A stretch of 64,000 bases of DNA from a phage (GCA_025812035.1 GCA_025812035.1_4719.1); one strand, 5' to 3'. Shown: positions 4,100 to 57,209, counted from the stretch's first letter. The notes: generated by a model from the sequence alone, not told the origin. Program-made: numbers and translations.

Positions 4100-4446
4100 T
4101 CCACATTCTCCGTTATATGCTTTAAACTGTTACGTATACTTCTCAATCGATGGTTAAATCCGGAACGATAACATTTCCGTTCAAACCGTGCCGCTCGCGA
4201 TTTATTCGCCTGATGAAGCTGTTCGTTCACCTGCGACGCTATACGTAAACGCTCTAATAAAGACCTCAGCCGAACGACAACCAACGGCTGTTCTTTCACC
4301 TTCTCTAGTTTGAGTAAATTGTCAACACGAAACTTTATTTCGATAATCTGATTCCTGTTTTTGCGGTACTGATGAATATACCAACATCGACGAAAATAGG
4401 CGATGCTAAACATAGGGTAGGTCCTTTTCAACGCCACCTCCAACAA
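4096..4446 (-). CDS. hypothetical protein (116 aa)
   Basis: complete ORF, minus-strand array. Confidence 0.5.
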   Translation of the reverse strand: MLEVALKRTYPMFSIAYFRRCWYIHQYRKNRNQIIEIKFRVDNLLKLEKVKEQPLVVVRLRSLLERLRIASQVNEQLHQANKSRAARFERKCYRSGFNHRLRSIRNSLKHITENVE

Positions 4447-4657
4447 TAAAACGGATTAGGTGCTTTATGGTATTTATAAATACCCACTTTCTTCCGTCTG
4501 CCTTTACCCGGTCCTCGTTTAATACGTTTGTTATAAACACGACCCAAATATCGAGTGACGATAGATCGGGATAAATACATCGGATCGATATAATCCAGAG
4601 TACCCGCTTCTGTTTCTTCGAGACATTGCATACGTAACTCCTCTTTCCTCTAAGAAG

Positions 4658-4864
4658 TCAATCCAGCATAAGCCATGGCATCGCTTTCGCGATAGAATCC
4701 ACCGCAGCATTTGCTATCCTTCGTTCAGTCATTGGCACCACGTGCGCAACGAACCGTTTCCCTTTATTGCAACCTTTCTTGTGTTTTCCTTTGACTAAAC
4801 GAACACCGATCATGTCGTTGATAACATGATTTAGTATGTAGCGCTGTAGAGAATTAATCATCAC
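4658..4864 (-). CDS. hypothetical protein (68 aa)
   Basis: complete ORF, minus-strand array. Confidence 0.35.
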   Translation of the reverse strand: MMINSLQRYILNHVINDMIGVRLVKGKHKKGCNKGKRFVAHVVPMTERRIANAAVDSIAKAMPWLMLD

Positions 4865-5375: not shown

Positions 5376-6395
5376 TTACACCGCCACCTTAGCCTTGATA
5401 GCCGGATGCGATTGATATCCAACGAACACAAAGTCTTCGTAACGGTAATCCGTAATACTTTCCGGTTTACGTACGATCGTTAGCTTCGGTAATGGATACG
5501 GCTCACGACTGAGCTGCTCTTTAACCTGTTCGAAGTGGTTGTGATAGATGTGACAATCTCCACCAGTCCACACGAACTCACCGACGTCCATATTCAGCTG
5601 TTGGGCAAGCATATGCGTTAACAACGAATATGAGGCGATGTTAAAGCTCCAACCCAAGAGCGTGTCGCACGAACGCTGATAAAGCTGACAGGATAAAGCA
5701 CGTGTTGGTACGTTATGTGTGTTCAACCAAAGTTCTATTTCACTACGTCGTACATCATCCATAACCCACTGGGTTCTTAGTACGTCGTTGCGTCGGACAT
5801 AATCAACGCGTTCATCGATCGTGAGTTCGTGGGTATAGAACTGATAGAAACTGTGGCACGGGGCGAGGTGCATGTCGTCTAAATCGCCTACGTTCCACGC
5901 GCTAACGATGATCCGTCGAGAATCAGGATCTTCTTTAAGCTGACGCATCACGTTTGCAATCTGATCGTGATGTTTAACATACACGAGGTGTTTTAGCATA
6001 CCGTCGTTAAGAATACCACAATACTCGTAACCGCGTTGCATCAACTCGCGAGTACGTTCTGTATCGTGCGGAACAACCACTTTGTAGTCAATCCATTCCC
6101 GCCATTGGCTACCGTAAATCGGTCCTAGATTCCCTTCTTCGTCAGCCCACTCATTCCAAATACGAACACCGTTATCTTGAAGATAAGCAACGTTTGTATC
6201 ACCATTAAGAAACCAGAGCAGTTCGTGGATAACGCTCTTAAGGTGAATCTTCTTAGTGGTTACCAGCGGGAATCCTTTCTTCAAGTCAAAACGCATTTGA
6301 CGTCCGAATACCGAACGGGTACCAGTACCTGTGCGGTCGGCTTTATCGCGACCATTATCCATGATGTCTTGCAAAAGGTCCAAATACTGTTTCAT
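5376..6395 (-). CDS. thyA: thymidylate synthase (ThyA type) with two in-frame insertions
   Basis: N-terminus [46 protein letters not shown], catalytic LAPCH, C-terminal LPKL..KPESI; 339 aa versus about 264 aa for E. coli ThyA. Confidence 0.9.
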
Positions 6396-52137: not shown

Positions 52138-52551
52138 TTACTGATTAATCAAGTCGTTAGCAACGATCTTGGTGTAACCTGCTTGATTGAGAATTTGATT
52201 AATTTTCGTCACGTCGGTCGCATCCTCAATAATGATGCTGGGTTTATAGATCAACGTCTTAGTAACGATGATTGTACTCTCCTTAATCCAAGGAATCCCT
52301 AAAATTACATACTCGCCATCCGCAGTGATGACCTCAACGTAGTTGTACTTCGTCGGATCGTTCGGTACACTAGATGGGAGTCGGGAATAAATCTGTTGAT
52401 GTATAGCGTCTACATCGCGGCCGTTGCGTACAGCCGTACGATAGTTGTATACGGCACTAATTTCTACTCCGTTGAAGTTAACCCCAAGTTCTGAAGCGTA
52501 CACGTCAAAACTCACAACAGAGCCAATCTTTTCTAAATCAGAAGCTGGCAT
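52138..52551 (-). CDS. hypothetical protein (137 aa)
   Basis: complete ORF. Confidence 0.5.
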   Translation of the reverse strand: MPASDLEKIGSVVSFDVYASELGVNFNGVEISAVYNYRTAVRNGRDVDAIHQQIYSRLPSSVPNDPTKYNYVEVITADGEYVILGIPWIKESTIIVTKTLIYKPSIIIEDATDVTKINQILNQAGYTKIVANDLINQ

Positions 52552-52566
52552 AATAGCACCCTTTAT

Positions 52567-52962
52567 TTAAAAAATGTATTCATATCCGAAAGCCGTCGCT
52601 GACCAAACTCGGATAGATGATAGTGTTCCGCCACGATAAAACGTTTTTGTGAACTCCATATCCTGGACAACACGATAATAGACACGTCCGATGATACGTA
52701 CAATAAGGTATCGCGGTAACGATCGCTCCTCGCAGTACTCATCGATAAAGTCATCGTCGATATCCGATAAGACAACATCTGCGATTTCTTGCAGTAGGTT
52801 CCTCATCAGCATCTGCCTTCCTTCGGTACCCCATCCAGACAAACAGTAATCATCTTCTGCCTGACTATAGATGTCGTTAACCGCCTGTTCGAGCAGCTGC
52901 TCAAGATAGTAGTCATCGCGTTTTATAACGTGGCGACGGCGCTCAATGGCGTATTTTTCCAT
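52567..52962 (-). CDS. hypothetical protein (131 aa)
   Basis: complete ORF. Confidence 0.45.
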   Translation of the reverse strand: MEKYAIERRRHVIKRDDYYLEQLLEQAVNDIYSQAEDDYCLSGWGTEGRQMLMRNLLQEIADVVLSDIDDDFIDEYCEERSLPRYLIVRIIGRVYYRVVQDMEFTKTFYRGGTLSSIRVWSATAFGYEYIF

Positions 52963-53411
52963 CCTGTGTTTCTCTTGTTTGGCGTATGTATTAACGACGC
53001 CACAGTCTTATCTGGATCGTCCCACAACGCACGACGAAAACTGGATACTACCATAACGGTAGGATAGATTTGCACAACCTCCCACCCGTAACGATGCGCG
53101 TTAGTCGTACGTCCGACATTAAACAAACATAGCTGATTTAAGAAACAAAGCTGCATCTTCGTAAACAACATGGTATCTTCGCGTTTAACGTATCCGAGAA
53201 TATAAGCATTCTCGAACGCCTCACGCGACAAGACGGGACGATTAAGATACCGCAACGCTAACACCAGCAACGTCGTTATACGCAACGGATCTTCCGGGTC
53301 ATTCATGCTGTTCAGCTCAGCTTGTAACCAGTCAGGAATAGTAACCGTCAGACGATAGGTATCTGTTCCGCGATCAACCACATTCAACGTTGAAAAAGGC
53401 AACATATCCAT
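52923..53411 (-). CDS. hypothetical protein (162 aa)
   Basis: complete ORF. Confidence 0.45.
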   Translation of the reverse strand: MDMLPFSTLNVVDRGTDTYRLTVTIPDWLQAELNSMNDPEDPLRITTLLVLALRYLNRPVLSREAFENAYILGYVKREDTMLFTKMQLCFLNQLCLFNVGRTTNAHRYGWEVVQIYPTVMVVSSFRRALWDDPDKTVASLIHTPNKRNTGWKNTPLSAVATL

Positions 53412-53949
53412 GAATTCCTTCTATCTCGAGGTTATTCTCGCCTGTCTTCGGTAATAACCCACTGGCTGTTAACATCTGTGTCATCGAGTAGTCAAAACAC
53501 GGAAATATAAGGTTAACGGTTTCCTGGATCGCATCAACATAACTATAAATGGCTTCATAGTACTCACCGTCATGATCCACGCTAACCAGGTTCTGGCACA
53601 GTTCTTCGCTTATCATTTCATATACCGGCGGATAAAACGAATGAAATGGTCGCTGCATACGTAACGACCAGTACTCGTACGTTGTATACTGAAGCACGTC
53701 ATAAGCCGATACGTTAATGCGATCGAAGAAAGCGTACTTGTCCATGTGCTGGTACAGCATCGCCAGCACGGTTTCCAAGCACACTGATATCCGTACACCG
53801 TCATCTTTTCCGTTAAGGAAATTAGGTTTCTGCCGATAGCGTACAAATGCTGACGGCTTTGATTGTACTATTCCACCACCAACCATAACGTCATACTCGT
53901 ATCTAACGTAAAATTGAAATGCCACCAATCTTCTACACGTGGGATCCAC
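53374..53949 (-). CDS. hypothetical protein (191 aa)
   Basis: complete ORF. Confidence 0.45.
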   Translation of the reverse strand: MDPTCRRLVAFQFYVRYEYDVMVGGGIVQSKPSAFVRYRQKPNFLNGKDDGVRISVCLETVLAMLYQHMDKYAFFDRINVSAYDVLQYTTYEYWSLRMQRPFHSFYPPVYEMISEELCQNLVSVDHDGEYYEAIYSYVDAIQETVNLIFPCFDYSMTQMLTASGLLPKTGENNLEIEGIHGYVAFFNVECG

Positions 53950-54353
53950 GTACGAAGGATCTGGTTAACTTCGCTTCGCATTACCGATAAACGACAACGA
54001 AAGTCAAACTTCTCTTCATGACCGTAGTCTTCATGCAAGAAAACTTCATCCAAAACGAACTCAAGTTGCATGTCGACATCGCGACCCGAGATATTTCGTT
54101 TATACAGATACAGTTCAATCGTGTCGTAAAGCAGTGTATGAATATCATAATTTCCGTTCGGTGAGAAGTAAGGTAATCGCTCATCGAACATCGTAAACAG
54201 ATATTCACTGTAGTTTAATAACGGGATGATGTACCGACGTCCTGTCTGTGGTGTGCGAATATGTATCGAAACCTGACTTGGACGCGGAATAACCGACGGC
54301 TTAGAATCGTCTCTCTGAAATTGCTCTAAAGATCGCAACAAAGGTGGCCGCAT
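53868..54353 (-). CDS. hypothetical protein (161 aa)
   Basis: complete ORF. Confidence 0.45.
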   Translation of the reverse strand: MRPPLLRSLEQFQRDDSKPSVIPRPSQVSIHIRTPQTGRRYIIPLLNYSEYLFTMFDERLPYFSPNGNYDIHTLLYDTIELYLYKRNISGRDVDMQLEFVLDEVFLHEDYGHEEKFDFRCRLSVMRSEVNQILRTWIPRVEDWWHFNFTLDTSMTLWLVVE

Positions 54354-54930
54354 TGTAACTCTCCAACGCCCAATTATAAGGCCCTTCTAACATGTGTTCC
54401 CATACGTGAATAAACTCACTACCGAAGACAGGCTCCAGCGCCATGGTAAGATTCGTAAGTTCTGACGCAGCCACGTGGTAAGCATCGACATGCCTATCCA
54501 TCGACGGATCGTCTTCATTGAAAATACGTTCTGTGTCGCCAGCCCGTTCAATAAGTTCGATGATGAGATCTGTCCATGTCTCGTGACACGTCATCGTTTC
54601 CTGTTCTCGACTTAGTATGCCGATGTCTGCGTGAACGCTGGACTCGAACCGGTCTAAAAGGACCCGAAGAACGTGCACCTTGTCGATGTATTTCACCGTT
54701 ATCCAAGAAAGCGGTTGCCATCGACCCAGCATCCATCCGGTACTCGGGAACCCCAAACTCATATAGTACGGGTTGCACGGGACCGAGGACGGAGCGACGT
54801 TGTTTAAATCGTTCCTTAAGGGCAAGGCCCTGTTTAATGTAAACGGGTTCATTGGCGAGTTGTTCTGCTTTTCGTTTTGCGTGAGCCAATCGAAGTTCTT
54901 CCAATTGCCCAAGCCATTCGAATTGTTCAT
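54301..54930 (-). CDS. hypothetical protein; N-terminal 380 nt overlap the upstream ORF in the +1 frame
   Basis: AGGAG RBS before ATG 54928..54930; see frameshift finding. Confidence 0.4.
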   Translation of the reverse strand: MNNSNGLGNWKNFDWLTQNEKQNNSPMNPFTLNRALPLRNDLNNVAPSSVPCNPYYMSLGFPSTGWMLGRWQPLSWITVKYIDKVHVLRVLLDRFESSVHADIGILSREQETMTCHETWTDLIIELIERAGDTERIFNEDDPSMDRHVDAYHVAASELTNLTMALEPVFGSEFIHVWEHMLEGPYNWALESYNAATFVAIFRAISERRF

Positions 54931-55525
54931 CTGTTAGCTCCTGGGGACGTTCAACAACCACACCAGATGGGCAGACATTGATCGTAATGTTAATTGACGG
55001 CATTGCCATCACACGAGGATTACTGTTGCGTACGTGGACAACATGTTCGGTTGCTGATTTACGATCGACGCAATACTCTGTTTCTTGGAACTCAAATGCT
55101 TTTAACGGTGTTGGTTTTGTTTGACGTTTTGGAACACGACCAAGATCAACAATATAGGCGTAATCACAAACACGTTCTATTCCGTAAATACGGTTATCCG
55201 ACCAGTTCTTACCAAACAGCTTGTTGTGATGATAAGATAGATATTCGGTTACCATACCCTGAACAACATCGAAGTCTTCTCGAAATTCAGGCTGGTACCA
55301 AATCGGACCGAGAATATCTGCGAACGATTCATGACGATATCGAGGATCGTGTCGGGTCCAGGTCATTCTCTGGTTAAGGTCGAAATCAACCAACAATTCT
55401 GTTAATTGCAGTTTTTCCTTCGGAGAAAGCTGGCGTTGATGATGCAAACTCAGGCAATCGATAAGCGGTAATGAAACCCACGATGCTAATGTGTACAAAT
55501 CGATCCTGGCTAATCTCTTGGTCAT
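54548..55525 (-). CDS. hypothetical protein; C-terminal 40 aa Arg-rich and probably not native
   Basis: coding-like through ..KERFKQRRSVLGPV then degenerates; overlaps 54301..54930. Confidence 0.4.
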   Translation of the reverse strand: MTKRLARIDLYTLASWVSLPLIDCLSLHHQRQLSPKEKLQLTELLVDFDLNQRMTWTRHDPRYRHESFADILGPIWYQPEFREDFDVVQGMVTEYLSYHHNKLFGKNWSDNRIYGIERVCDYAYIVDLGRVPKRQTKPTPLKAFEFQETEYCVDRKSATEHVVHVRNSNPRVMAMPSINITINVCPSGVVVERPQELTDEQFEWLGQLEELRLAHAKRKAEQLANEPVYIKQGLALKERFKQRRSVLGPVQPVLYEFGVPEYRMDAGSMATAFLDNGEIHRQGARSSGPFRPVRVQRSRRHRHTKSRTGNDDVSRDMDRSHHRTY

Positions 55526-55616: not shown

Positions 55617-55937
55617 TCATTTTCTCCCTCTTCGAATACCACCGATACCTCTTCGATCCAAGACGTCCCATGCACGTTTTATTTCATCCTCCGTTGCTCT
55701 GGTATCTGGAGGGACAACCATAACACAATCGTGGAATGGCCAGTGCGTCGGTCTAGGGTCAGCAAATAGATTATCCCATTCAAGCGTCCATGATTGCTTT
55801 GAACGATTATAGTAGATCGTAAGGTACGTATTAGTGTACGCTGGGTAACCACGCATAACTTCAACATCTTTACGATCCTGCCGTTCCTGATTCCAATCGT
55901 TAAATCGTTTTCTTATTTTATCCCATCGCTTTCCCAT
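55617..55937 (-). CDS. hypothetical protein (start at ATG 55935..55937)
   Basis: AGGAG RBS before internal ATG; longer form would include the terminator hairpin. Confidence 0.45.
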   Translation of the reverse strand: MGKRWDKIRKRFNDWNQERQDRKDVEVMRGYPAYTNTYLTIYYNRSKQSWTLEWDNLFADPRPTHWPFHDCVMVVPPDTRATEDEIKRAWDVLDRRGIGGIRRGRK

Positions 55938-55950
55938 GCTTTCTCCTACA

Positions 55951-55982
55951 CGGCATAAAAGCCTGCCCCGAAGGACAGGCTC
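55951..55982 (-). terminator. GC hairpin followed by TTTTATGCCG
   Basis: stem AGCCTG/CAGGCT with GC-rich interior. Confidence 0.5.
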
Positions 55983-55990
55983 GATAGAAC

Positions 55991-56191
55991 TTAACGACCA
56001 TCCAATTTCAACGAAGGATGGTTGACGATATGTGCGTGTTTTGCTGGGTCGTATGGCAGATATGGAAAATAACCATGCCATTCACGACCTTGGCATTTCG
56101 TACACACGAACTGACCACCGCTCCGTTGATTCTCGTAAGCGAGTTCAGTACTATCAACATGACCGCAACGTTCGCAGATAAACAGCGACAT
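55991..56191 (-). CDS. small zinc-ribbon protein (66 aa)
   Basis: CERCG..(18)..CTKCQG Cys pairs. Confidence 0.4.
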   Translation of the reverse strand: MSLFICERCGHVDSTELAYENQRSGGQFVCTKCQGREWHGYFPYLPYDPAKHAHIVNHPSLKLDGR

Positions 56192-56228: not shown

Positions 56229-57209
56229 TTAGAATAGCAAGAAACCGCTGTTCTTCGCTTCCGCTACAGTTTCGTCACCAACTTTCGGTGCCTGTTGACG
56301 CGCGTTACGATGTTCAATGTAACGTTTCGCTTCGTCAGCGATTTGTTTGATAATACCCCCTAAACGATCGGTACTTAAAACAAACGACGTCGCTTCACGG
56401 ATTGGGCTGCTGTCAGGCACAAAACCGTCACAACTGTAAATAGCGTTAACACCCATGACTTTTGTCGCGTCTTTCGGATAAAGCGTACAGAAAGCAATGG
56501 GGCTATCGTTCTCTTTTGTCCAATCGTATCCCATGAACGTATTCAGTTCGGTGATCGTTGGTTCCAAACCGGTAACACGTGGATGGTTCAAGAAGTTTTC
56601 CAGGTCAGCGCTGTCAAGACGACGGTTCTCACCAGAAAACAGAACACAAAGCTGGCTAATAACAACCTGCACGTCCAGGTTGACATCCTGCTCCGATTTC
56701 CCATTTTCGCCATTCATGTGATAGCTGACGATCACCGGACGTTTCAACCCTTCTGCGGCTGCCATCAGTCCTTTAAAGGTGCGGTCTGCGTTGATCGTCT
56801 GACGCTCATCATCGAACGAGGCAACGATGCAACATACCACACGTTCACCGCGTTCCAGCAGGTTAGCAACCAACGCAGGACCTGCAACAGAACCCGAACC
56901 ACCGCTTAAACTAAAGACCACGATATTAAATTTACCTGGCGTATGTTTGTTGAGAATACCTGGGATTTGTGAACAGATCAGTTCAGCGTTCTCGTCACGC
57001 TTCTTACCCGAACCGTCTAACTCGCGGCCTGCTGCATCTTTAAAGATGTAAATATGATCATCGTCCAGTGTGCTATCGCGTAGGTTAGCACGGCTGGTAT
57101 CGACATACGTCATGCTGTGTAATCCTTTCGCGACTTCGCCTTCAAACGCTGAGCCGATTTCGCCACCACAACCGCCGACAGCCCAAATATGTACTTGGTT
57201 CTCTTGCAT
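56229..57209 (-). CDS. phuZ: PhuZ-like phage tubulin (tubulin/FtsZ GTPase fold)
   Basis: N-terminal AVGGCGGEIGSA nucleotide-binding segment and SLSGGSGSVAGP tubulin signature (GGGTGSG-like); length 326 aa. Confidence 0.75.
   Translation of the reverse strand: MQENQVHIWAVGGCGGEIGSAFEGEVAKGLHSMTYVDTSRANLRDSTLDDDHIYIFKDAAGRELDGSGKKRDENAELICSQIPGILNKHTPGKFNIVVFSLSGGSGSVAGPALVANLLERGERVVCCIVASFDDERQTINADRTFKGLMAAAEGLKRPVIVSYHMNGENGKSEQDVNLDVQVVISQLCVLFSGENRRLDSADLENFLNHPRVTGLEPTITELNTFMGYDWTKENDSPIAFCTLYPKDATKVMGVNAIYSCDGFVPDSSPIREATSFVLSTDRLGGIIKQIADEAKRYIEHRNARQQAPKVGDETVAEAKNSGFLLF

What the first reader, a model, noticed from the sequence alone, without database searches (positions are those of the whole stretch)
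54548..54930. Two ORFs overlap by about 380 nt in +1 register: possible frameshift or indel
ORF 54548..55525 looks like real coding through ..EQFEWLGQLEELRLAHAKRKAEQLANEPVYIKQGLALKERFKQ, then becomes Arg-rich and implausible for its last 40 residues. ORF 54301..54930, one nucleotide downstream in frame, has an AGGAG RBS and becomes convincingly protein-like from about WITVKYIDKVHVLRVLL. The switch falls near 54700..54800, where there is a UUUGGGGUUCCC run. This could be a programmed +1 frameshift giving a fused protein of about 480 aa, an indel error, or two truly overlapping genes.
Basis: inference. Interest (0 to 1): 0.45.

Follow-up and report, generated by a model that had tools for sequence, protein, structure and literature searches.

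The report
Two genuinely overlapping jumbo-phage genes
The two reading frames are most likely two separate genes of a Goslar-like jumbo phage that share up to 383 bases in different frames, each with its own start signal, so this is neither a frameshift nor a sequencing error; it is an ordinary kind of viral gene overlap that public annotation has cut short.

Summary
On the minus strand, ORF A (55525..54548, 325 aa, Goslar gp198) and ORF B (54930..54301, 209 aa) overlap by 383 nt, with B in the +1 frame.

It is not an indel. Nine related loci (seven distinct sequences, 87-96% identical; seven further loci, one identical to Goslar, were aligned) align over 1311 nt without a gap.

It is very unlikely to be a programmed frameshift. 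Two distant, syntenic relatives (A about 30% identical) keep the same +1 overlap, of 320 and 191 nt. In all three lineages the first ATG of ORF B, at the 5' edge of the open frame, follows a strong Shine-Dalgarno site: CAGGAG, GGAGGA, GGAGGA. The UUUGGGGUUCCC run is not conserved in the distant relatives.

Substitution patterns split the overlap in two:
- **54930..54779:** only frame A is constrained, so B's first ~50 residues are free to vary.
- **54778..54548:** third positions of both frames are constrained (p = 1e-9 and 1e-5). B's most conserved motif, WQPLSWITVKY..LLDRF, lies here, under A's Arg-rich tail.

GenBank's 98-aa gp197 is truncated. B's exact start and the function of both proteins remain unproven. 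Interest is low to moderate.

The parts
54548..55525 (-). Gene A, 325 aa, the ortholog of Goslar gp198 (QBO63990). It has a conserved body (residues 1 to about 255) and an Arg-rich tail predicted to be unstructured (about 258-325).
   Evidence: ORF. Goslar annotation. Third-position variation pattern. Distant homologs P0006 and P0007. AF2 shows no confident structure after residue 247 (low-confidence model).
54301..54930 (-). Gene B, 209 aa if started at the SD-ATG. Goslar annotates only its last 98 aa as gp197. It has a variable N-terminal extension (about residues 1-51) and a conserved core that starts near WQPLSWITVKY.
   Evidence: ORF. The same full-length ORF is present in Goslar, L009 (215 aa) and L010 (175 aa).
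54938..54942 (-). Shine-Dalgarno AGGAG for gene B, embedded in gene A codons Q-E (CAG GAG), 7 nt upstream of B's ATG.
   Evidence: Sequence. Duplex energy with the anti-SD is -6.6 kcal/mol; the equivalent sites in L009 and L010 give -9.5 and -9.3. Of the 19 AGGAG-N4-10-ATG sites on this strand, 13 lead into ORFs of at least 67 aa.
54928..54930 (-). Proposed start codon of gene B. The ATG is formed across A's Asp-Glu codons (gATGaa) in the conserved TDEQFEW motif. A frame-B stop codon lies two codons upstream.
   Evidence: The site is invariant in all close relatives. L009 has its ATG at the same position. In L010 that ATG is followed by a stop, and a new SD-ATG lies 39 nt downstream.
54779..54927 (-). 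Overlap part 1. Only frame A is constrained here. B's N-terminal extension is encoded in A's alternative frame and evolves freely.
   Evidence: A third positions (= B second positions) vary at 20/51 sites, against 83/198 in the A-only region (p = 0.75). Every such change is non-synonymous in B.
54548..54778 (-). Overlap part 2. This is the dual-constrained region: B's most conserved core (..WQPLSWITVKYIDKVHVLRVLLDRF..) lies over A's tail (..FLDNGEIHRQGARSSGPFRPVRVQRSRRHRH..).
   Evidence: A third positions vary at 5/77 sites (p = 1e-9 against A-only). B third positions vary at 13/77 sites, against 34/65 in the B-only region (p = 1e-5). Between the window and L009, A's third-position identity reaches 0.8-0.93 while A's amino-acid identity is 0.13-0.47.
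54746..54757 (-). It allows +1 re-pairing in principle (GGG-G, CCC-G), but nothing else supports a shift here.
   Evidence: Sequence. The aligned positions in L009 (CUUUACUUUGACCCGCAC) and L010 (AAGACAUACCCAAACCGG) do not share it. The following frame-A codons are GUU and GAG, with no stop. The local RNA fold has z = 0.18.
54760..54762 (-). Alternative internal start for B (Met57). It sits just where B's constraint begins in the Goslar group but has no SD.
   Evidence: Conserved in the close relatives. SD energy is +0.6 kcal/mol. L009 and L010 have no ATG at the aligned position.
54592..54594 (-). ATG that corresponds to the GenBank start of Goslar gp197 (the 98-aa version). It is not the true start.
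   Evidence: Goslar annotation. This codon is Leu in L002-L004, and gene callers there call no gene at all. B-frame conservation extends about 125 codons upstream of it.
54301..54353 (-). A 53-nt overlap between the end of gene B and the start of the next gene (161 aa, Goslar gp196), which has its own GGAGAG SD. It serves as an internal control: dual coding here also suppresses variation.
   Evidence: Only 1 of 53 columns varies. SD energy is -6.4.

Best explanation
Gene A (325 aa) and gene B are two separate protein-coding genes of a Goslar-like nucleus-forming jumbo phage. They sit on one polycistronic message and overlap out of frame, with B in the +1 frame. Ribosomes translating A read through to the TGA at 54548-54550. 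Other ribosomes start independently at an internal Shine-Dalgarno site (AGGAG, 54942..54938) and ATG (54930) that are written into A's codons, and they make B. B's first ~50 residues are read from the alternative frame of A's conserved TDEQFEW-helix region and are free to vary, as expected for an overprinted, probably disordered extension. A's last ~70 residues are read from the alternative frame of B's most conserved segment and form a basic tail predicted to be unstructured. No recoding is needed. What is shown: the ORFs, the absence of indels, conservation of the overlap and of the SD-ATG in three lineages, and the two-part constraint pattern. What is inferred: that the SD-ATG at 54930 is the start actually used (about 0.65-0.7; the rest goes mostly to a start further in), and that both proteins accumulate. 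The biochemical function of both proteins is unknown. The genes are restricted to the Goslar-like clade and lie between the PhuZ tubulin gene and the DNA polymerase gene.
For: 1. There are no indels. The window and seven further related loci (seven distinct sequences; L006 equals Goslar), down to 87% identity, align gap-free over 1311 nt.
2. HMMER against 1.84 billion representatives found distant A homologs P0006 (E = 6e-36, about 30% identity) and P0007 (E = 9e-16). Their contigs L009 and L010 are syntenic (tubulin, small gene, A, five small genes, SH3DP, DNA polymerase). Both carry a +1-frame ORF B that overlaps A by 320 and 191 nt.
3. B's motif is conserved inside the overlap: WQPLSWITVKYIDKVHVLRVLLDRF, ISWMTMKYVKPVNIIRLLLDRF and WQPLCWVTVSYVNKLMVLRF.
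4. In each lineage, the first ATG of ORF B lies at the 5' edge of the open frame and follows a strong SD, with energies of -6.6, -9.5 and -9.3 kcal/mol. Every alternative start gives +0.7 to -4.3. L010 has lost the ancestral ATG position and has a new SD-ATG 39 nt downstream.
5. A 5-mer SD precedes about 3% of internal out-of-frame ATGs but about 40% of gene starts.
6. Resampling codons while holding protein A fixed gives P(open frame + ATG + SD) = 0.0044, 0.032 and 0.039.
7. In the overlap 54778..54548, third positions of both frames are constrained (p = 1e-9 and 1e-5), and B's third-position variation jumps right after A's stop.
8. The neighbouring B/gp196 overlap behaves the same way.
Against: B residues 1-51 show no detectable amino-acid constraint. 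That is also what is expected if they are not translated. In the Goslar group, B's constraint begins just upstream of an internal ATG (Met57, 54762). At deep divergence there is no independent sign that A's tail sequence is selected: B third-position identity is 0.41 in the overlap against 0.35 outside it. The tail's resemblance between the window and L009 is therefore largely a by-product of B's conservation. No proteomic or ribosome-profiling data were found. Only three lineages exist, so the statistics rest on few independent observations. The structure models were too poor to help.
Confidence: 0.82

Rival explanations
1. There are still two overlapping genes, but B starts further in, at Met57 (ATG 54762..54760) or another internal codon. 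The true overlap would then be about 215 nt, and the SD-ATG at 54930 would be unused or minor.
For: In the Goslar group, constraint on frame B begins at 54778, 16 nt before this ATG, and residues 1-51 evolve as if untranslated. Met57 is conserved in all close relatives.
Against: This ATG has no SD (+0.6 kcal/mol). L009 and L010 have no ATG at the aligned position. In L010 the only ATG upstream of the conserved WQPLCW motif is the SD-ATG at 5653. This model leaves unexplained why all three lineages keep a strong SD, an ATG and an open 50-73-codon extension.
Confidence: 0.12
2. A programmed +1 ribosomal frameshift at UUU GGG GUU CCC G (54757..54745) fuses A residues 1 to about 257 to B residues about 60-209. 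This would give a protein of about 407 aa alongside full-length A.
For: GGG-G and CCC-G allow perfect or near-perfect +1 re-pairing of the P-site tRNA. The run sits at the point where constraint passes to frame B. The 52 nt around it are invariant in the Goslar group. All three lineages keep the same +1 frame relation.
Against: The run is absent at the aligned positions in L009 and L010, and no other shared slippery motif exists. No slow or stop codon follows it: the next frame-A codons are GUU and GAG, and A stays open for 70 more codons. There is no significant local RNA structure (z = 0.18) and no Rfam element. Unlike the downstream ORFs of known frameshift systems, B has its own strong SD-ATG and a long open extension in every lineage. 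No lineage has the two parts fused in frame.
Confidence: 0.04
3. A sequencing or assembly indel, or a recent frameshift mutation (pseudogene), has split one ancestral gene.
For: Such an error would explain the frame switch in a single genome with no other information. The homopolymer-like GGGG/CCC run is the sort of place where indel errors occur.
Against: The window and seven independently assembled relatives, including the published Goslar genome, have exactly the same frames with zero gaps. Lineages at about 30% protein identity keep the same two-frame layout. Both frames are under purifying selection.
Confidence: 0.01
4. The GenBank-style model: B is only the 98-aa C-terminal part that starts at 54594, overlapping A by about 47-50 nt, and the rest of ORF B is non-coding by-product.
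For: This is how Goslar gp197 is annotated. A weak SD (AGGAA, -4.3 kcal/mol) precedes that ATG.
Against: That ATG is Leu in L002-L004. The most conserved B-frame motif lies upstream of it in three lineages. A's third positions are strongly constrained upstream of it (5/77).
Confidence: 0.01

Closest known systems
Out-of-frame overlapping gene pairs created by overprinting in phages. From my own knowledge: lambda Rz/Rz1 (Rz1 in the +1 frame of Rz), phiX174 D/E and A/B/K, and the MS2 lysis gene over coat and replicase.
   Same: Two proteins are read from the same nucleotides in different frames. The second gene has its own ribosome-binding site inside the first. The newer, overprinted segments are compositionally biased and probably disordered (B's Asn/Ser/Pro-rich N-terminus, A's Arg-rich tail). 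Synonymous variation is suppressed where both frames matter.
   Different: This is a partial, terminal overlap in a 240-kb jumbo phage, where genome compaction is not pressing. It is not an embedded gene in a tiny genome. Both genes appear to have extended into each other: A's C-terminus lies over B's core, and B's N-terminus lies over A's body. No lysis or other function is known for either.
Programmed +1 ribosomal frameshifting. From my own knowledge: E. coli prfB (CUU UGA C with an upstream SD) and Listeria phage PSA capsid and tail genes.
   Same: The frame relation is +1, and the window has codons that could re-pair in +1 (GGG-G, CCC-G).
   Different: There is no stop or hungry codon at the site, no SD-like stimulator at the correct spacing, and no conservation of the site. 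The downstream frame has its own SD-ATG.
The conserved -1 frameshift in tail assembly chaperone genes (lambda G/GT type; from my own knowledge).
   Same: A conserved two-frame arrangement of adjacent phage ORFs that annotation pipelines often mishandle.
   Different: The direction is wrong (-1, not +1). Those systems use a slippery heptamer and have no independent start on the downstream ORF. The genomic context also differs: this locus lies between the tubulin and DNA polymerase genes, not in the tail module.
Annotated gene overlaps of more than 50 nt in dsDNA viruses (Schlub and Holmes 2020, PMC7017920).
   Same: That survey found at least one annotated overlap longer than 50 nt in 61% of dsDNA virus reference genomes, so the class is common.
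   Different: Most such annotated overlaps are unverified. Here the overlap is supported by conservation across about 30%-identity lineages and by constraint in both frames, yet it is under-called in the public annotation (about 50 nt instead of 383 nt).

Membership tests
Programmed +1 ribosomal frameshift site | A P-site codon that lets its tRNA re-pair in the +1 frame, conserved among orthologs | tested here: not met
   GGG-G and CCC-G are present in the window and its close relatives, but the aligned sequences in L009 and L010 have no such run and no shared alternative.
Programmed +1 ribosomal frameshift site | A slowly decoded A-site codon (a stop or a rare codon) immediately after the slip codon | tested here: not met
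   The following frame-A codons are GUU and GAG. Frame A has no stop for another 70 codons.
Programmed +1 ribosomal frameshift site | A stimulatory element (an SD-like sequence about 3 nt upstream, or a downstream RNA structure) | tested here: inconclusive
   The GGGG could act as a weak SD 2 nt before CCC, but this rests on inference only. The fold of 54620-54800 is no more stable than shuffled sequence (z = 0.18). There was no Rfam match.
Programmed +1 ribosomal frameshift site | The downstream frame lacks its own initiation signal and is open only from near the slip site | tested here: not met
   ORF B extends 50-73 codons upstream of its conserved core and begins with a strong SD plus ATG in three lineages.
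Programmed +1 ribosomal frameshift site | A trans-frame fusion protein is detected | not testable with these tools
   No proteomic data for Goslar gp197 or gp198 were found.
Genuine overlapping protein-coding genes (overprinting) | Both reading frames stay open across the overlap in related genomes, including distant ones | tested here: met
   All aligned Goslar-group loci (seven distinct sequences) plus L009 and L010 keep both frames open.
Genuine overlapping protein-coding genes (overprinting) | Independent translation initiation signals for the internal gene | tested here: met
   SD energies are -6.6, -9.5 and -9.3 kcal/mol before the first ATG of ORF B in three lineages. The codon-resampling null gives 0.0044, 0.032 and 0.039. 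Actual use of the site is not shown.
Genuine overlapping protein-coding genes (overprinting) | Purifying selection in both frames, seen as suppressed synonymous variation in the overlap | tested here: met
   This holds for 54778..54548: A third positions vary at 5/77 sites against 83/198, and B third positions at 13/77 against 34/65. It does not hold for 54930..54779, where only A is constrained. At deep divergence only B's constraint is visible.
Genuine overlapping protein-coding genes (overprinting) | Both protein products are detected | not testable with these tools
   No expression data are available.

The most novel reading that the evidence does not exclude
The most novel reading not excluded is that a minority of ribosomes translating A shift +1 at UUU GGG GUU CCC G in the Goslar group. 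This would make a ~407-aa A-B fusion in addition to separate A and B. It would be a lineage-specific +1 recoding site with no stop or hungry codon, in a nucleus-forming jumbo phage. A milder novel reading is that the pair is a case of reciprocal overprinting, in which each gene has grown a disordered extension inside the other's frame and B's unconstrained 50-residue leader is kept only to place its ribosome-binding site.
Probability: 0.05. Interest if true: 0.6.

Novelty: new member of a known kind. Interest (0 to 1): 0.25.

Why it matters
The main value is as a correction and a caution.
- **Annotation:** the reference annotation of phage Goslar, a model nucleus-forming jumbo phage, truncates gp197 to 98 aa. 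Gene callers on related contigs either truncate it or miss it altogether. The real gene is probably 209 aa, and at least about 150 aa.
- **Method:** a frame switch with a slippery-looking run should not be called a programmed frameshift without orthologs. Here the orthologs settle the question.
- **Biology:** this is a clean, testable example of a long (190-383 nt) overlap kept across deep divergence in a large dsDNA phage, where compaction is not an obvious driver. It belongs to an operon whose genes all overlap serially, which hints at translational coupling of a set of small proteins next to the tubulin and DNA polymerase genes.

Tried and rejected
- **Family and structure-sequence searches.** Pfam and PHROGs scans of A, B and their distant homologs gave nothing significant. 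A PDB sequence-profile search found nothing for A and only noise for B (calmodulin and ankyrin at E of about 0.5).
- **Structure prediction.** The AF2 model of B from a single sequence had pLDDT 35. The model of A from a 5-sequence alignment had pLDDT 46. Both are too poor for fold searches, so I ran none.
- **More lineages.** tblastn of the fused protein against 50,697 phage records found only Goslar. Scans of IMG/VR and of the metagenome contigs, with single proteins and with the A alignment, returned only close relatives. Profile searches with the A and B alignments added no further lineage.
- **Paralogy.** BLASTP showed no paralogy between B and the neighbouring small genes.
- **RNA elements.** The RNA fold around the switch is no more stable than shuffled sequence. 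Rfam gave only a sub-threshold snoRNA hit. The promoter and terminator scan found nothing above expectation.
- **Literature.** Searches for Goslar gp197/gp198 and their accession numbers found nothing. The chimallivirus core-genome supplement does not list them.
- **A's tail.** I first took the similarity of A's tail to P0006 as independent proof that the tail is selected. I rejected that after one search showed the similarity is carried by A's third positions, which means it reflects B's conservation.

Full report
**What is there.** The window is a close relative of Escherichia phage vB_EcoM_Goslar, a nucleus-forming jumbo phage. The 2-kb region around the finding is 94% identical to Goslar. 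Genes here run on the minus strand.
- ORF A is 55525..54548 (325 aa) and corresponds to Goslar gp198.
- ORF B is 54930..54301 (209 aa). Goslar annotates only its last 98 aa as gp197.
- The two ORFs share 54548..54930 (383 nt), and B is in the +1 frame of A.

**Not an error.** I collected nine related loci: Goslar (L001 = L006), three Logan contigs at about 87% identity (L002-L004), L005, two IMG/VR contigs (L007, L008) and an ENA contig (L011). The window, Goslar and L002-L005 align over 1311 nt without a single gap. So do the window and seven of the loci in the second alignment, which contains seven distinct sequences. L005 and L008 were missed by my extraction pattern in that second run. Independent assemblies with identical frames rule out a sequencing indel or a recent pseudogenising mutation.

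**Where each frame is under selection.** Coordinates below are window coordinates.
- **From A's start to 54779**, variable sites fall overwhelmingly on A's third codon positions (83 of 198 in the A-only part). This includes the first 152 nt of the overlap, where 20 of 51 vary (p = 0.75). Every one of those changes alters the amino acid in frame B. B's first ~50 residues are thus unconstrained.
- **From 54778 to A's stop at 54548**, total variation drops more than two-fold. A's third positions vary at only 5 of 77 sites (p = 1e-9). B's third positions vary at 13 of 77 sites, against 34 of 65 just downstream of A's stop (p = 1e-5). Both frames accumulate a few non-synonymous changes.
- **A built-in control:** the 53-nt overlap between the end of B and the next gene (gp196-like, with its own GGAGAG SD) is almost invariant, with 1 of 53 columns variable.

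Suppressed variation in this operon therefore tracks dual coding. RNA structure does not explain it: the fold of 54620-54800 has z = 0.18 against shuffles, and Rfam finds nothing.

**Distant relatives decide the question.** A full HMMER scan of 1.84 billion representative proteins with ORF A found only two more lineages:
- P0006: 334 aa, 29-32% identical, E = 6e-36.
- P0007: 280 aa, 28-29% identical, E = 9e-16.
- P0008 is a fragment of the P0006 lineage.

Their contigs (L009, L010) are syntenic with the window: DUF7484 gene, PhuZ-type tubulin, a small gene, A, five small genes, an SH3DP gene and the DNA polymerase. The gene callers placed a ~105-aa gene after A in both contigs. The ORF lists show that this gene is the tail end of a longer +1-frame ORF overlapping A:
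- L009: 5686..6333 (215 aa), overlap 320 nt.
- L010: 5653..6180 (175 aa), overlap 191 nt.

B's best-conserved motif lies inside the overlap in all three lineages: WQPLSWITVKYIDKVHVLRVLLDRF, ISWMTMKYVKPVNIIRLLLDRF and WQPLCWVTVSYVNKLMVLRF.

**Each lineage gives B its own start.** The first ATG of ORF B lies at the 5' edge of the open frame and is preceded by a canonical Shine-Dalgarno sequence in all three lineages:

| Lineage | SD and start | Duplex energy with the anti-SD |
|---|---|---|
| Window | CAGGAGcuaacagAUG | -6.6 kcal/mol |
| L009 | CGGAGGAuuuaaccgAUG | -9.5 kcal/mol |
| L010 | UGGAGGAcuuaaaacAUG | -9.3 kcal/mol |

- In the window and L009, the ATG is formed across the Asp-Glu codons of A's conserved TDEQFEW motif.
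- In L010, that ATG is followed by a stop after 12 codons (11 sense codons), and a new SD-ATG sits 39 nt downstream. This looks like replacement of a start under selection.
- All alternative starts are weak. Met57 gives +0.6, Met67 -3.3 and the GenBank-type start -4.3. The gene-caller starts in L009 and L010 give +0.3 and -3.1.
- On this strand, 13 of 19 AGGAG-N4-10-ATG sites open ORFs of at least 67 aa.
- A 5-mer SD precedes about 3% of internal out-of-frame ATGs, against about 40% of gene starts.
- Resampling A's synonymous codons while keeping its protein fixed yields an open extension plus an ATG plus an equally strong SD in 0.44%, 3.2% and 3.9% of samples for the three lineages.

**Why not a +1 frameshift.**
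- The run UUU GGG GUU CCC G would allow +1 re-pairing (GGG-G, CCC-G), but it is followed by ordinary codons and not by a stop.
- No structure or stimulator is detectable.
- The aligned stretches in L009 (..CUU UAC UUU GAC CCG CAC..) and L010 (..AAG ACA UAC CCA AAC CGG..) share neither this run nor any other slippery motif.
- No lineage encodes A and B fused in one frame.
- Known frameshift systems have downstream frames without their own start. Here the downstream frame has the best SD in the neighbourhood.

I put the fusion at about 4-5%.

**What remains uncertain.**
1. **B's true start.** Within the Goslar group, constraint on B starts just before Met57 (54762). That fits an internal start as well as it fits a domain boundary. 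The cross-lineage SD-ATG evidence makes 54930 the better candidate (about two-thirds), but only initiation mapping or N-terminal peptides can settle it.
2. **Whether A's tail is functional.** Ribosomes on A must translate the tail, because the first stop is at 54548. Within the Goslar group, A's first positions are constrained. Between the window and L009, however, the resemblance of the tails (LDNGE.. and ..RPVRVQR) is carried by A's third positions (identity 0.8-0.93), which are B's second positions. B's third positions are no more conserved inside the overlap than outside it (0.41 against 0.35). L010's A stops 45 codons earlier. The tail is basic, and a low-confidence AF2 model predicts it to be unstructured. 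The simplest history is that A's C-terminus was extended over B's ancestral core, and B's N-terminus was extended over A's ancestral body.
3. **Function.** No Pfam, PHROG, PDB or literature link was found for either protein.

**Comparison with known systems.** The arrangement works like classical overprinted phage gene pairs with an internal ribosome-binding site (Rz/Rz1, phiX174 D/E; from my own knowledge). It belongs to the common class of viral overlaps longer than 50 nt: 61% of dsDNA virus reference genomes have at least one (PMC7017920). It fails four of the five defining tests for a programmed +1 frameshift site. It is a new, well-supported member of a known kind. Its practical consequence is an annotation fix for Goslar gp197 and its relatives.

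**Verdict.** Two overlapping genes without recoding: 0.82 for the main model, plus 0.12 for the variant with a start further in. Programmed frameshift: about 0.04. Error or pseudogene: about 0.01. Interest: 0.25.

Noticed in passing
window 52138..54353 (-); L009 6377..8588; L010 6140..8295: The genes downstream of B form a chain of small genes (161, 170, 160, 131 aa, then a 137-aa SH3DP gene). Successive genes overlap by 19, 32 and 40 nt, and B overlaps the first of them by 53 nt. Similar serial overlaps of about 19-41 nt recur at most of the corresponding junctions in both distant lineages. This suggests translational coupling of a conserved module between the tubulin and DNA polymerase genes.
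   Followed up: partly
L001 (Goslar MK327938) 4398..4694 = gp197; L002-L004 have no gene call between 4978 and 5173: Public annotation truncates gene B to 98 aa in Goslar. On the ~87%-identity contigs, where the annotated ATG is a Leu codon, gene B is not called at all.
   Followed up: yes
L009 5001..5066: The gene caller starts the A homolog P0006 22 codons upstream (MPVCLYIRKVLCVLLMGERDII) of the position that aligns with Met1 of the window and L010 proteins (MRHSFYRLDL). The real start is probably 5067.
   Followed up: partly
window 56229..57209 (-): A 326-aa PhuZ-type tubulin gene (Goslar gp201), with AGGAG before its ATG. On related contigs its product carries a Pfam Tubulin hit.
   Followed up: no
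window 54576..54842 (+): An 88-aa antisense ORF lies opposite the dual-coded stretch and is also open in Goslar. It is most likely a by-product of the strong sequence conservation there, not a third gene.
   Followed up: no
window 55617..56081 (-): The mechanical ORF is 154 aa, but Goslar annotates 106 aa (gp199). The window has an AGGAG-ATG at 55937 that matches the shorter version. L005 calls only a 65-aa gene here, so this small gene is variable among relatives.
   Followed up: no
window 54626..54715 (-): Within the overlap, the 90 nt that encode B's SWITVKYIDKVHVLRVLLDRFESSV are the most conserved stretch of the whole locus (4 variable sites among relatives). A 13-nt string, UUAGACCGGUUCG, is identical to L009 even though A is only about 30% identical at the protein level.
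   Followed up: partly
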